Below are positions 42,463 through 54,046 of a DNA stretch of 64,000 nucleotides, in pieces (within the stretch, counting starts at the first letter, position 1; the number at the start of each line of letters is the position of its first letter). The stretch is from NCBI RefSeq assembly GCF_009914755.1, contig NC_060926.1. One strand, written 5' to 3'. This DNA is from the human T2T-CHM13v2.0 reference genome, Homo sapiens. Below the pieces are notes generated by a model, which searched no databases, was not told the DNA's origin, and saw only the letters and a list, made by a program, of their open reading frames with translations. Position numbers and translations under genes: made by a program.

Positions 42463-43473
42463 TTACATTTTGGCATGATTTTGCAGCGGCTGGTACTGGT
42501 TGTGCCTTTCCATGTTTAGCGCTTCCTTCAGGAGCTCTTTTAGGGCAGGCCTGGTGGTGACAAAATCTCTCAGCATTTGCTTGTCTGTATTTTATTTCTC
42601 CTTCACTTATGAAGCTTAGTTTGGCTGGATATGAAATTCTGGGTTGAAAATTCTTTTCTTTAAGAATGTTGAATATTGGCCCCCACTCTCTTCTGTCTTG
42701 TAGAGTTTCTGCTGAGACATCTGCTGTTAGTCTGATGGGCTTCCCTTTGAGTGTAACTCGACCATTCTCTCTTTCTGCCCTTAACATTTTTTACTTCATT
42801 TCAACTTTGGTGAATCTGACAATTATGTGTCTTGGAGTTGCTCTTCTCGAGGAGTATCTTTGTGGCATTCTCTGTATTTCCTGAATGTGAATGTTGGCCT
42901 GCCTTGCTAGATTGGGGAAGTTCTCCTGGATAATATCCTGCAGAGTGTTTTCCAACTTGGTTCCATTCTCCCTGTCACTTTCAGGTACACCAATCAGATG
43001 CAGATTTGGTCTTTTCACATAGTCCCATATTTTTGGAGGCTTTGCTCATTTCTTTTTATTCTTTTTTCTCTAAACTTCCCTTCTGGCTTCATTTCATTCA
43101 TTTCATCTTCCATCACTGATACCCTTTCTTTCAGTTGATTGTATCAGCTCCTGAGGCTTCTGCATTCTTCACGTATTTCTCGAGCCTTGACTTTCAGTTC
43201 CATCAGCTCCTTTAAGGACTTCTCTGTATTGGTTATTCTAGTTATACATTCATCTAAATTTTTTTCAAGGTTTTCAACTTCTTTGCCTTTGGTTTGAATT
43301 TCCTCCTGTAGCTCAGAGTAGTTTGATCGTCTGAAGCCTTCTTCTCTCAACTTGTCAAAGTCATTCTCTGTCCAGCTTTGTTCCGTTGCTGGTGAGGAAC
43401 TGCGTTCCTTTGGAGGAGGAGAGGTGCTGTGCTTTTTAGAGTTTCCAGTTTTTCTGTTCTGTTTTTTCCCCAT
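42463..43473 (-). pseudogene. L1-A ORF1, disrupted
   Basis: MGKKQNRKTGNSK start; internal stops and a 5-bp deletion near 42590. Confidence 0.95.
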
Positions 43474-44508
43474 CTTTGTGGTTTTATCTACTTTTGGTCT
43501 TTGATGATGGTGATGTACAGATGGGTTTTTGGTGTGGATGTCCTTTCTGTTTGTTAGTTTTCCTTCTAACAGACAGGACCCTCAGCTGCAGGTCTGTTGG
43601 AGTTTGCTAGAGGTCCACTCCAGACCCTGTTTTCCTGGGTATCAGCAGCGGTGTCTGCAGAACCGCGGATTTTCGTGATCGGCGAATGCTGCTGTCTGAT
43701 TGTTCCTCTGGAAGTTTTGTCCCAGAGGAGTACCCGGCCGTGTGAGGTTTCAGTCTGCCCCTACTGGGGGGTGCCTCACAGTTAGGCTGCTCGGGGGTCG
43801 GGGGTCAGGGACCCACTTGAGGAGGCAGTCTGCCTGTTCTCAGATCTCCAGCTGCGTGCTGGGAGAACCACTGCTGTCCTCAAAGCTGTCACACAGGGAC
43901 ATTTAAGTCTGCAGAGGTTACTGCTGTCTTTTTGTTTGTCTGTGCCCTGCCCCCAGAGGTGGAGCCTACAGAGGCAGGCAGGCCTCCTTGAGCTGCGGTG
44001 GGCTCCACCCAGTTGGAGCTTCCAGGCTGCTTTGTTTACCTAAGCGAGGCTGGGCAATGGCGGGCGCCCCTCCCCCAGCCTCACTGTGGCCTTGCAGTTT
44101 GATCTCAGACTGCTGTGCTAGCAATCAGTGAGATTCTGTGAGCGTAGGACCCTCCAAGCCAGGTGTGGGATATAGTCTCCTGTTGTGCCGGGTTTCCTAA
44201 GCCCGTCAGAAAAGCGCAGAATTCGGGTGGGAGTGGCCCGATTTTCCAGGTGCTGTCTCTCAGCCCTTTCCTTGACCAGGAAAGGGAACTCCCTGATCCC
44301 TTGTGCTTCCCGAGTGAGGCAATGCCTCGCCCTGCTTCGGCTCGCACACGGTGCGCTGCACCCACTGTCCTGCGCCCACTGTCTGGCACTCCCTAGTGAG
44401 ATGAACCCGGTACCTCAGATGGAAATGCAGAAATCACCCGTCTTCTGCATCGCTCACGCTGGGAGCTGTAGACCGGAGCTGTTCCTATTCGGCCATCTTG
44501 GCTCCTCC
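43474..44508 (-). promoter_or_regulatory. L1 5'UTR internal sense promoter and antisense promoter region
   Basis: GC/CpG-rich 5'UTR; intact YY1 core caagatggcc (ggccatcttg at 44491-44500); activity cannot be seen from sequence. Confidence 0.8.
44057..44131 (+). pseudogene. L1 ORF0 truncated to 24 aa
   Basis: ATG at 44057 gives MAGAPPPASLWPCSLISDCCASNQ then TGA, a likely CGA>TGA change. Confidence 0.85.
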
Positions 44509-44874
44509 TTCAAAAGACAACAATTTTAAACATTGGTATATTCTCTAGGAACCAGAGAATACATTAGACATTGACACAGATAATCCAAAGCATAAAATTC
44601 ATTCCAATATTGGTAAATTATTACTTAAGTGTTACGCATTTATATTAACCACATATAACATTACACTTCTCTAAACAGCTTCAAGTCGTATGCAGGTAGA
44701 TTATGATAATTCCTCACACGAATCACAGAAGAAACATTTCTTTTGCAAATATGTTAATGCATAAGTTTTAAGTAGACTGGCTTTATAATTGAATACATTT
44801 ATGATAACATCCAGATGATCAAGAGTTTCAGGAAAGAAAGGTATAACTGAAATGGAACTGTGTTTCATTCAACA

Positions 44875-52844: not shown

Positions 52845-52961
52845 CCTCTGCTGCTGATACCCAGGCAAACAGCGACTGGAGTGGACTTCCAGCATACTCC
52901 AACAGACCTGCAGCTGAGGGTCCTGACTGTTAGTAGGAAAACTAACAAACAGAAAGGACAT
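51504..52961 (-). other. Open chimeric ORF of ~485 aa: antisense 5'UTR peptide fused to the L1 ORF2 RT domain; function unsupported
   Basis: First ATG at 52961 (the track start at 52970 is TTG); frame crosses the junction at [12 protein letters not shown] and stays open through QGCPLAP and FADD. Confidence 0.6.
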
Positions 52962-53025
52962 CCACACCAAAACCCCATCTGTACATCACCATCATCGACG
53001 TCCAAAGGTAGATAAAACCTCAAAG

Positions 53026-54046
53026 ATGGGGAAAAAACAGAGCAGAAAAGCTGAAAATTCTAAAAATCAGAGCACCTCTTCCCCTCCAAAGGAACACAGC
53101 TCCTTGCCAGCAATGGAACAAAGCTGGATGGAGAATGACTTTGACGAGTTGAGAGAAGAAGGCTTCAGATGATCAAAGTTCTCTGAGCTAAAGGAGGAAG
53201 TACGAACCCTTTGCAAAGAAGCTAAAAACCTTGAAAAAAGATTAGACGAATGGCTAACTAGAATAAGCAGTGTAGAGAAGTCCTTAAATGAACGGATGGA
53301 GCTGAAAACCATGGCACGAGAACCACGTGATGAATGCACAAACTTCAGTAGCCGATTTGATCAACTAGAAGACAGAGAGGGTATCAGTGATTGAAGATCA
53401 AATGAATGAAATGAAGTGAGAAGAGAAGTTTAGAGAAAAAAGAGTAAAAAGAAATGAACAAAGCTTCCAAGAAATATGGGACTATGTGAAAAGACCAAAT
53501 CTACGTCTGATTGCCATACCTGAAAGTCATGGGGAGAATGGAACCAAGTTGGAAAACACTCTGTAGGATATTATCCAGGAGAACTTCCCCAACCTAGCAA
53601 GGCAGGCCAAAATTCAAATTCAGGAAATACAGAGAAGAGAATGCCACAAAGATACTCCTCGAGAAGAGCAACTCCAAGACACATAATTGTCAGATTCACC
53701 AAAGTTGAAATGAAGGAAAAAATGTTAAGGGCAGCCAGAGAGAAAGGTCGGGTTACCCACAAAGGGAAGCCCATCAGACTAACAATGGATCTCTCAGCAG
53801 AAACTCTACAAGCCAGAAGAGAGTGGGGGCCAATATTCAACATTCTTAAAGAAAAGAATTTTCAACCCAGAATTTCATATCCAGCCAACGTAAGCTTCAT
53901 AAGTGAAGGAGAAATAAAATACAGACAAGCAAATGCTGAGAGATTTTGTCACCACTAGACCTGCCCTATAAGAGCTACTGAAGGAAGCACTAAACATGGA
54001 AAGGCACAACCAGTACCAGCCCCTGCAAAAACATGCCAAATTGTAA
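53026..54046 (+). pseudogene. L1-C ORF1, disrupted
   Basis: ATG GGG AAA AAA CAG start; stops, small insertions and a 5-bp deletion near 53920. Confidence 0.93.

What the first reader, a model, noticed from the sequence alone, without database searches (positions are those of the whole stretch)
42490..54015. L1-A and L1-C share an ORF1 frameshift deletion and a linked substitution
Seen: both read gaaataaaatacagacaagc (A near 42590 on minus, C near 53920 on plus), giving the same frameshifted peptide GEIKYRQANAERFCHH. About 85 bp further on both read ggaaaggcacaacc where I recall ggaaaggaacaacc as consensus. Both also encode KELQKQEQ (A near 41428, C near 55074) instead of KELEKQEQ. The endonuclease region between these sites shows no such sharing and the elements look like different subfamilies. 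Inference: short conversion patches between inverted L1s 11-14 kb apart. Caveat: the deletion lies in a small tac repeat and could recur independently.
Basis: partly seen in the sequence, partly recalled or inferred. Interest (0 to 1): 0.7.

Follow-up and report, generated by a model that had tools for sequence, protein, structure and literature searches.

The report
Neighbouring dead L1s swap short patches
Two dead LINE-1 repeats 11 kb apart in the human genome carry a mutation pair found nowhere else, likely because DNA repair copied short patches from one to the other; one of them also shares a 1.7-kb near-identical stretch with a third copy beside it, likely by the same known process.

Summary
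Observation confirmed. L1-A (minus, full length, younger lineage) and L1-C (plus, 5'-truncated, older) share a 5-bp ORF1 deletion (17 of 3,060 copies genome-wide), a substitution 83 bp away (55 of 3,173) and the KELQ change (43 of 2,255). Deletion plus substitution occurs twice in the genome, both here. Each variant also recurs elsewhere. A and C differ at five bases between the two linked variants, so one clean tract is unlikely; two short patches (65 and 32 bp at most) fit better. A blind test supports this: among 115 L1 copies with rare alleles at three unrelated sites, 4 of 4 pairs within 20 kb and 8 of 10 within 120 kb share the allele, mostly in short identical runs. The strongest signal is one the finding does not mention: L1-B and L1-C share a 1.7-kb tract (97.7% identical, 27 private alleles against 0.6 expected), ending at an 11-bp deletion and just short of an Alu. 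Best reading: non-allelic gene conversion among neighbouring L1s (0.72 for A-C; about 0.93 for B-C). The process is known for Alus; the locus is probably neutral. Ape orthologues could not be examined.

The parts
38339..44508 (-). L1-A: full-length primate L1, younger lineage (L1PA4-like; label inferred from tree position and recall), both ORFs broken
   Evidence: self-BLAST and panel mapping; trees; longest open stretch 402 codons
38322..38338 (+). left copy of A's target-site duplication (right copy 44512-44528; 17 bp, 2 mismatches)
42554..42618 (-). 65-bp run identical in A and C (C 53891-53955) holding the shared 5-bp ORF1 deletion; candidate patch 1
42488..42519 (-). 32-bp run identical in A and C (C 53990-54021) holding the shared substitution at 42504/54005; candidate patch 2
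41380..41438 (-). 59-bp run identical in A and C (C 55066-55124) holding the KELQ change at 41429/55075; weaker candidate patch
49963..52844 (-). L1-B: 5'-truncated older L1, head to head with C
50761..51057 (-). Alu inserted in B, with a target-site duplication; 8 CpGs left; AluY-like by recalled diagnostics
51094..52754 (-). B arm of the 1.7-kb B-C homogenised tract
   Evidence: 27 panel-private alleles shared with C, 38 differences in 1,662 columns; tree support 100/100
55652..57332 (+). C arm of the B-C tract; begins just after an 11-bp deletion in C at 55647
52844..58146 (+). L1-C: older L1 (L1PA6-like; label inferred), truncated in the 5' UTR, joined to B with 1 bp of microhomology and no inner target-site duplication found

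Best explanation
L1-A and L1-C are separate, dead insertions of different age that likely exchanged two or three short patches (tens of bases) by non-allelic gene conversion, and L1-B and L1-C share a 1.7-kb tract that likely arose the same way. Shown: different lineages, rare shared alleles, uniqueness of the pair, the B-C tract and its limits, and the excess of shared rare alleles among close L1 neighbours genome-wide. Inferred: a break or nick in one copy was repaired from the inverted neighbour 11-14 kb away without crossover, copying the deletion and the substitution either in two events or in one heteroduplex repaired in patches. A to C is slightly favoured: all five differences between the variants are on C's side of the panel majority or at a CpG site, and without the two shared variants A would have no private change in about 200 bp. 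The A-C exchange must postdate A. The B-C event is dated to roughly 10 million years ago (2.3% divergence; scale recalled), and its ends were likely set by the 11-bp deletion and the Alu. No function is proposed.
For: Pair unique to A and C. A-C share 4 panel-private substitutions against 0.94 expected, P 0.015, plus the indel; shared private indels occur in about 9 of 872 panel pairs. Blind sites: 4 of 4 pairs within 20 kb and 8 of 10 within 120 kb share the allele (permutation means 0.81 and 2.03; P 0.0016 and 4e-5), with no excess at 1-10 Mb (13 of 47, mean 9.5). The focal lists with A and C removed: 5 of 5 pairs within 120 kb, P 0.009. Five of the six non-focal pairs within 20 kb are only 88-96% identical yet identical over about 55-130 bp around the allele; two of them carry a second shared rare allele about 75 bp away, as A-C do. 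B-C: 27 shared against 0.61 expected inside, 0 against 0.42 outside. B's 5' tip differs at 6 of 73 (P 0.007 at the tract's rate), so the tract is internal. Known for Alus within about 10 kb (PMC6598467, PMC8230782, passages); L1 conversion tracts as short as 13 bp are cited in PMC1920257.
Against: The deletion sits in a short direct repeat and recurs in 15 exact or 23 near-exact other copies. Five differences separate the linked variants; at one, C's base is most simply derived from its own older lineage state. Flank similarity is near background: 6 events within 75 bp either side of the deletion against a mean of 7.3; 7 against 10.8 at 100 bp (3 of 44 panel copies as low); none below background at 30-50 bp around the substitution. 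Two of the four shared substitutions lie at the edge of identical runs and look like chance. The panel is small and under-samples lineages: an allele private in it (A-B, 40910) falls in a class of 688 copies genome-wide, nearly all of the 100 listed with that allele. The substitution is probably in part a young-lineage allele (two carriers on different chromosomes are 98.3% alike). All four blind pairs within 20 kb come from one of the three sites, and 35 bp of each run is fixed by the search pattern.
Confidence: 0.72

Rival explanations
1. Independent recurrence: the deletion arose twice by slippage in the short direct repeat and the substitutions arose twice by chance. Only B-C is a true conversion.
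For: Each allele recurs at 0.6-1.9%. About one shared private substitution per pair is expected. The bases between the variants keep their own lineage states and the flanks are not clearly homogenised. The pair was picked after the fact.
Against: About 4e-4 per pair, or 0.03-0.06 such pairs genome-wide if 65-150 close pairs exist (the pair count rests on 2 close pairs among 100 chr1 positions, and may be low). Close neighbours share rare alleles far above chance at blind sites.
Confidence: 0.2
2. Shared third donor or local chain: both copies took the patches from another nearby L1 or from cDNA, not from each other.
For: Two more copies 71 kb and about 520 kb beyond C carry the same substitution and the same neighbouring CpG-decay allele: 4 of 55 carriers within 535 kb.
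Against: Neither carries the deletion, and no third copy has both variants.
Confidence: 0.05
3. Crossovers between the inverted copies (an inversion and its reversal) left conversion tracts at the exchange points.
For: Inverted L1 pairs do mediate inversions (PMC2603318, PMC9675761, passages). A crossover inside the B-C tract cannot be excluded, because B and C are of similar age.
Against: A keeps a matching target-site duplication and stays in the young clade in all four regions, C in the old, so no segment was swapped between A and C. None of the 4 chr2 rows of the human-chimpanzee list is this locus.
Confidence: 0.03

Closest known systems
Non-allelic gene conversion between neighbouring Alu elements (Aleshin and Zhi 2010, seen only through passages of PMC6598467 and PMC8230782)
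   Same: Neighbours share non-diagnostic mutations; the effect falls with distance; conversion is often partial.
   Different: Here the elements are L1s; the excess reaches 20 kb and apparently about 100 kb, against about 10 kb reported for Alus; a frameshift is among the shared alleles.
L1-L1 gene conversion in break repair (Tremblay et al. 2000, seen only as cited in PMC1920257) and single intrachromosomal cases in that paper
   Same: L1 copies act as donors; tracts can be as short as 13 bp.
   Different: Those are induced breaks in cells or isolated loci; this is an old germline record between copies 7% apart.
L1 recombination-mediated inversions (PMC2603318; PMC9675761)
   Same: Inverted L1 pairs a few kb to 14 kb apart as substrate; B-C at 97.7% is close to the 97.1% median quoted for L1 inversion pairs.
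   Different: No chimaera or flank exchange between A and C; no inversion shown here.
Twin-primed (5'-inverted) L1 insertion (recalled)
   Same: B and C are joined head to head with 1 bp of microhomology.
   Different: Both have their own 3' end and overlap by 2.6 kb of L1 sequence, and they differ by 8% outside the tract, so they are two insertions.

Membership tests
Non-allelic gene conversion (A-C patches) | Copies of independent origin | tested here: met
   Different clades and diagnostic states; A has its own target-site duplication
Non-allelic gene conversion (A-C patches) | Shared derived alleles above recurrence | tested here: met
   Pair unique in the genome; 4 against 0.94 plus an indel; modest and set after the fact
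Non-allelic gene conversion (A-C patches) | A contiguous homogenised tract | tested here: inconclusive
   Runs of 65, 32 and 59 bp, not longer than other A-C runs (up to 75 bp); 5 differences between the linked variants
Non-allelic gene conversion (A-C patches) | Non-reciprocal transfer seen against the ancestral state in outgroups | not testable with these tools
   No ape genomes held (no relatives)
Non-allelic gene conversion (B-C tract) | Tract with shared derived alleles and a local change of tree | tested here: met
   27 against 0.61; B and C sisters at 100/100 in the tract, not in the 3' part
Non-allelic gene conversion (B-C tract) | Replacement inside a pre-existing copy, not a duplication | tested here: met
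   Diverged B sequence on both sides: 6 of 73 and 50 of 650 differences; the 5' side is short
Non-allelic gene conversion (B-C tract) | Donor and direction | tested here: inconclusive
   B and C carry nearly the same diagnostic states
L1-mediated inversion | Chimaeric elements and inverted spacer against an outgroup | tested here: inconclusive
   No chimaera for A-C; B-C not resolvable; no outgroup
Twin-primed L1 insertion | Two non-overlapping parts of one RNA with one 3' end | tested here: not met
   B and C overlap by 2.6 kb and each has a 3' end

The most novel reading that the evidence does not exclude
Dead L1 copies in the human genome routinely trade 30-150-bp patches with neighbours up to 20 kb, perhaps 100 kb, away, across subfamilies 5-12% apart. 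About 7% of copies carrying a rare allele share it with a neighbour within 20 kb and 14% within 120 kb (8 and 16 of 115 in the blind lists). L1 fossils would then form local conversion networks that spread even frameshifts, and this locus (A, B, C and two copies further on) would be one such network.
Probability: 0.5. Interest if true: 0.6.

Novelty: new member of a known kind. Interest (0 to 1): 0.42.

Why it matters
The locus itself is probably neutral. It matters as a worked example, and for what the control showed: close L1 neighbours share rare alleles far more often than chance. L1 remnants are used as independent clocks for ages, lineage trees and mutation-rate tables (for example PMC5237266, passages); local patch exchange would bias those. 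It also gives a cheap genome-wide measure of ectopic repair range and tract length between 5-12% diverged sequences. The B-C tract leaves two 1.7-kb inverted arms at 97.7% identity 2.9 kb apart, a plausible substrate for a small inversion.

Tried and rejected
One tract spanning deletion and substitution: disfavoured (5 differences in 83 bp, none a private change in A). Subfamily alleles: rejected for the deletion and for the pair. A-B patches: 3 shared alleles outside the tract against 0.18 expected, but the one checked genome-wide is common, so I give them no weight; the other two were not checked. Shared alleles at 40645 and 38781: at the edge of identical runs, treated as chance. The L1 3' fragment near 15.9-16.2 kb shares no private allele with A, B or C. 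Search for a target-site duplication enclosing B plus C: none of 10 bp or more with at most 1 mismatch. Inversion catalogues: no row for this locus in the chr2 rows of PMC2603318 file 1, or in file 3 of PMC12229492 and PMC13629690; the GRCh38 position was estimated from a recalled offset, so these blanks are weak. The large Strand-seq catalogue and preprint supplements could not be seen and may list the locus. One near-identical panel twin (L050) was dropped before counts. The full-length panel is 14-18 copies, all from chr1; the ORF1-endonuclease panel is up to 44, of which 15 were chosen as deletion carriers. Ten literature searches found no genome-wide study of conversion between neighbouring L1s and nothing on this locus; most subscription papers are not searched, so this does not show that it is unpublished.

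Full report
Setting. The hub places the window at chr2:209,188,001-209,252,000 of T2T-CHM13, in an intron of a lncRNA. Self-comparison shows three primate L1s: A (minus, about 38339-44508, full length, 17-bp target-site duplication with 2 mismatches), B (minus, 49963-52844, 5'-truncated, with an Alu at 50761-51057) and C (plus, 52844-58146, truncated in the 5' UTR). B and C abut head to head with 1 bp of microhomology. A and C are 91.7% identical over 5.3 kb including gaps. Subfamily names used here are inferred from tree position and recall; no repeat library was on hand.

Both A and C lack the same 5 bp near the end of ORF1 and give the same shifted peptide. Exact genome-wide counts: deletion 17 against 3,043 intact, or 25 with up to two mismatches; substitution 55 against 3,118; KELQ 43 against 2,212. 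Deletion and substitution together occur twice, in A and C; none of the other 15 exact deletion copies has the substitution. In trees of four regions A sits with the younger panel copies and C with the older ones. At lineage-diagnostic columns C is almost wholly old and A mostly young. So common descent does not explain the sharing.

How far above chance. I mapped a panel onto A: 29 intact chr1 copies (one near-identical twin dropped) and 15 deletion carriers; 14-18 of these cover most of the element. A and C share 4 substitutions absent from the panel, against 0.94 expected from 439 panel pairs of similar identity (P 0.015). Two of the four sit at the edge of an identical run and look like chance. 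Shared private indels are seen about 9 times among 872 pairs. A shared private indel plus a shared private substitution within 100 bp comes to about 4e-4 per pair, 0.03-0.06 genome-wide for 65-150 close pairs. That pattern was defined after the fact, and the pair count rests on 2 close pairs among 100 positions.

What speaks against a simple tract. A and C differ at five bases between the two variants. At one of them C has a base one transition away from the state of its nearest old relatives and a transversion away from A. The identical runs around the three alleles are 65, 32 and 59 bp, while other A-C runs reach 75 bp. Windows centred on the deletion hold 4, 6 and 7 differences at 50, 75 and 100 bp either side, against means of 5.2, 7.3 and 10.8 for C against the panel; around the substitution and KELQ there is no deficit beyond 15-30 bp. 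The panel also misses lineages: an allele shared by A and B and absent from it belongs to a class of 688 copies. If conversion happened, it was in patches of tens of bases.

A blind calibration. If neighbours convert, rare alleles should cluster by distance. With A and C removed from the three focal lists (109 copies), 5 of 5 pairs within 120 kb share the allele (permutation mean 2.0, P 0.009); 2 of 2 within 20 kb (P 0.15). I then chose three sites without regard to this locus and listed all copies with a non-majority base (56, 12 and 47). Among these 115, 4 of 4 pairs within 20 kb and 8 of 10 within 120 kb share site and allele (means 0.81 and 2.03; P 0.0016 and 4e-5); 6 of 12 at 0.12-1 Mb (P 0.03); 13 of 47 at 1-10 Mb (P 0.14). 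All four closest pairs come from one site. I fetched all six non-focal pairs within 20 kb (0.8-1.5 kb each, inside the L1, no flanks). One is a long tract or a duplication (98.3%, 9 shared rare alleles). Five are 88-96% identical with identical runs of about 55-130 bp around the allele (35 or 32 bp fixed by the pattern); two carry a second shared rare allele about 75 bp away within the run. That is the anatomy proposed for A-C. Of the pairs beyond 20 kb, four were fetched (92-98% identical, one to three shared rare alleles) and the rest not; some may be duplications.

The stronger event. They differ at 38 of 1,662 columns inside, 6 of 73 in B's 5' tip and 50 of 650 in the 3' part. They are sisters at 100/100 in the tract tree and unresolved in the 3' tree. 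The tract starts just after an 11-bp deletion in C and ends about 35 bp short of the Alu in B, as expected if large heterologies stop heteroduplex extension (inference). The Alu keeps 8 CpGs and so looks older than the tract. Divergence is 2.3% (1.6-3.1%), with tip lengths like those of the youngest panel clade; on recalled ape divergences this is about 10 million years, after A inserted. The donor cannot be told. The loss of both inner ends and any inner target-site duplication at the B/C junction likely reflects an end-joining deletion or an insertion with deletion; untested.

Mechanism. Most likely: break or nick repair by strand invasion into an inverted neighbour on the same chromatid or its sister, resolved without crossover. 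B-C, 2.9 kb apart, gave a long tract; A-C, 11-14 kb apart and 7% diverged, gave short or patchily repaired ones. No crossover between A and C is indicated, since A keeps its flanks and its lineage throughout. I put 0.72 on conversion for the A-C variants and about 0.93 for B-C.

Comparison with what is known. Neighbouring Alus homogenise within about 10 kb (Aleshin and Zhi 2010, not held; seen through passages of PMC6598467 and PMC8230782). L1 conversion tracts down to 13 bp in cell assays and one intrachromosomal case are cited in PMC1920257 (passages; the primary paper was not held). Inverted L1 pairs mediate inversions (PMC2603318, passages and the chr2 rows of file 1; PMC9675761, passages). 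A pangenome L1 study removed 35 recombinants of 2,267 young loci; the passages I saw do not relate them to neighbours (PMC13192797). PMC5237266 and PMC8232201 were seen as passages; PMC12229492 and PMC13629690 only as searches of one supplement each. Ten searches found no genome-wide account for neighbouring L1s, within a library that lacks most subscription papers; unseen supplements may list this locus as an inversion.

Verdict. A real feature; a new instance of a known process; probably neutral. The wider lead, frequent patch exchange among L1 neighbours, rests on few pairs and deserves the all-against-all count. Interest 0.42.

Noticed in passing
window 51094-52754 and 55652-57332: 1.7-kb B-C tract at 97.7% identity forming inverted arms 2.9 kb apart; a possible substrate for a small inversion.
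   Followed up: yes
window 52844: B and C are fused head to head with 1 bp of microhomology; both inner ends and any inner target-site duplication are missing.
   Followed up: partly
L068 (G000:C2:209312700-209314200) and L069 (G000:C2:209763300-209764800): Two more L1s, 71 kb and about 520 kb beyond C, carry the same rare substitution and the same adjacent CpG-decay allele, but not the deletion.
   Followed up: partly
L070 and L071 (G000:C6, 72.116 and 72.127 Mb): Same-strand L1s 10 kb apart, 98.3% identical over 890 bp with 9 shared rare alleles: long conversion tract or local duplication.
   Followed up: partly
L082-L089 (G000:C3 61.25 and 148.68 Mb, C5 132.4 Mb, C7 19.17 Mb); L076-L077 (C1 164.44 Mb): Five neighbour pairs 4-19 kb apart, 88-96% identical, sharing a rare allele inside a short identical run; four of the five are inverted pairs.
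   Followed up: partly
L043 and L066 (G000:C1, 51.36 and 47.84 Mb): Two old copies 3.5 Mb apart share 12 panel-private alleles within about 560 bp: an unsampled old lineage or a conversion.
   Followed up: no
L046, L052, L012, L070 near the end of ORF1: Young-lineage copies carry the old-lineage states at three linked columns within 25 bp, suggesting old patches in young elements or a minor lineage.
   Followed up: no
L049 and L050 (G000:C1, 12.45 and 12.73 Mb): Near-identical L1 pair with the same truncation pattern, probably a segmental duplication; one was dropped from the panel.
   Followed up: no
window 15878-16250: 3' fragment of a young L1, 96.6% identical to A, with no private allele shared with A, B or C.
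   Followed up: yes
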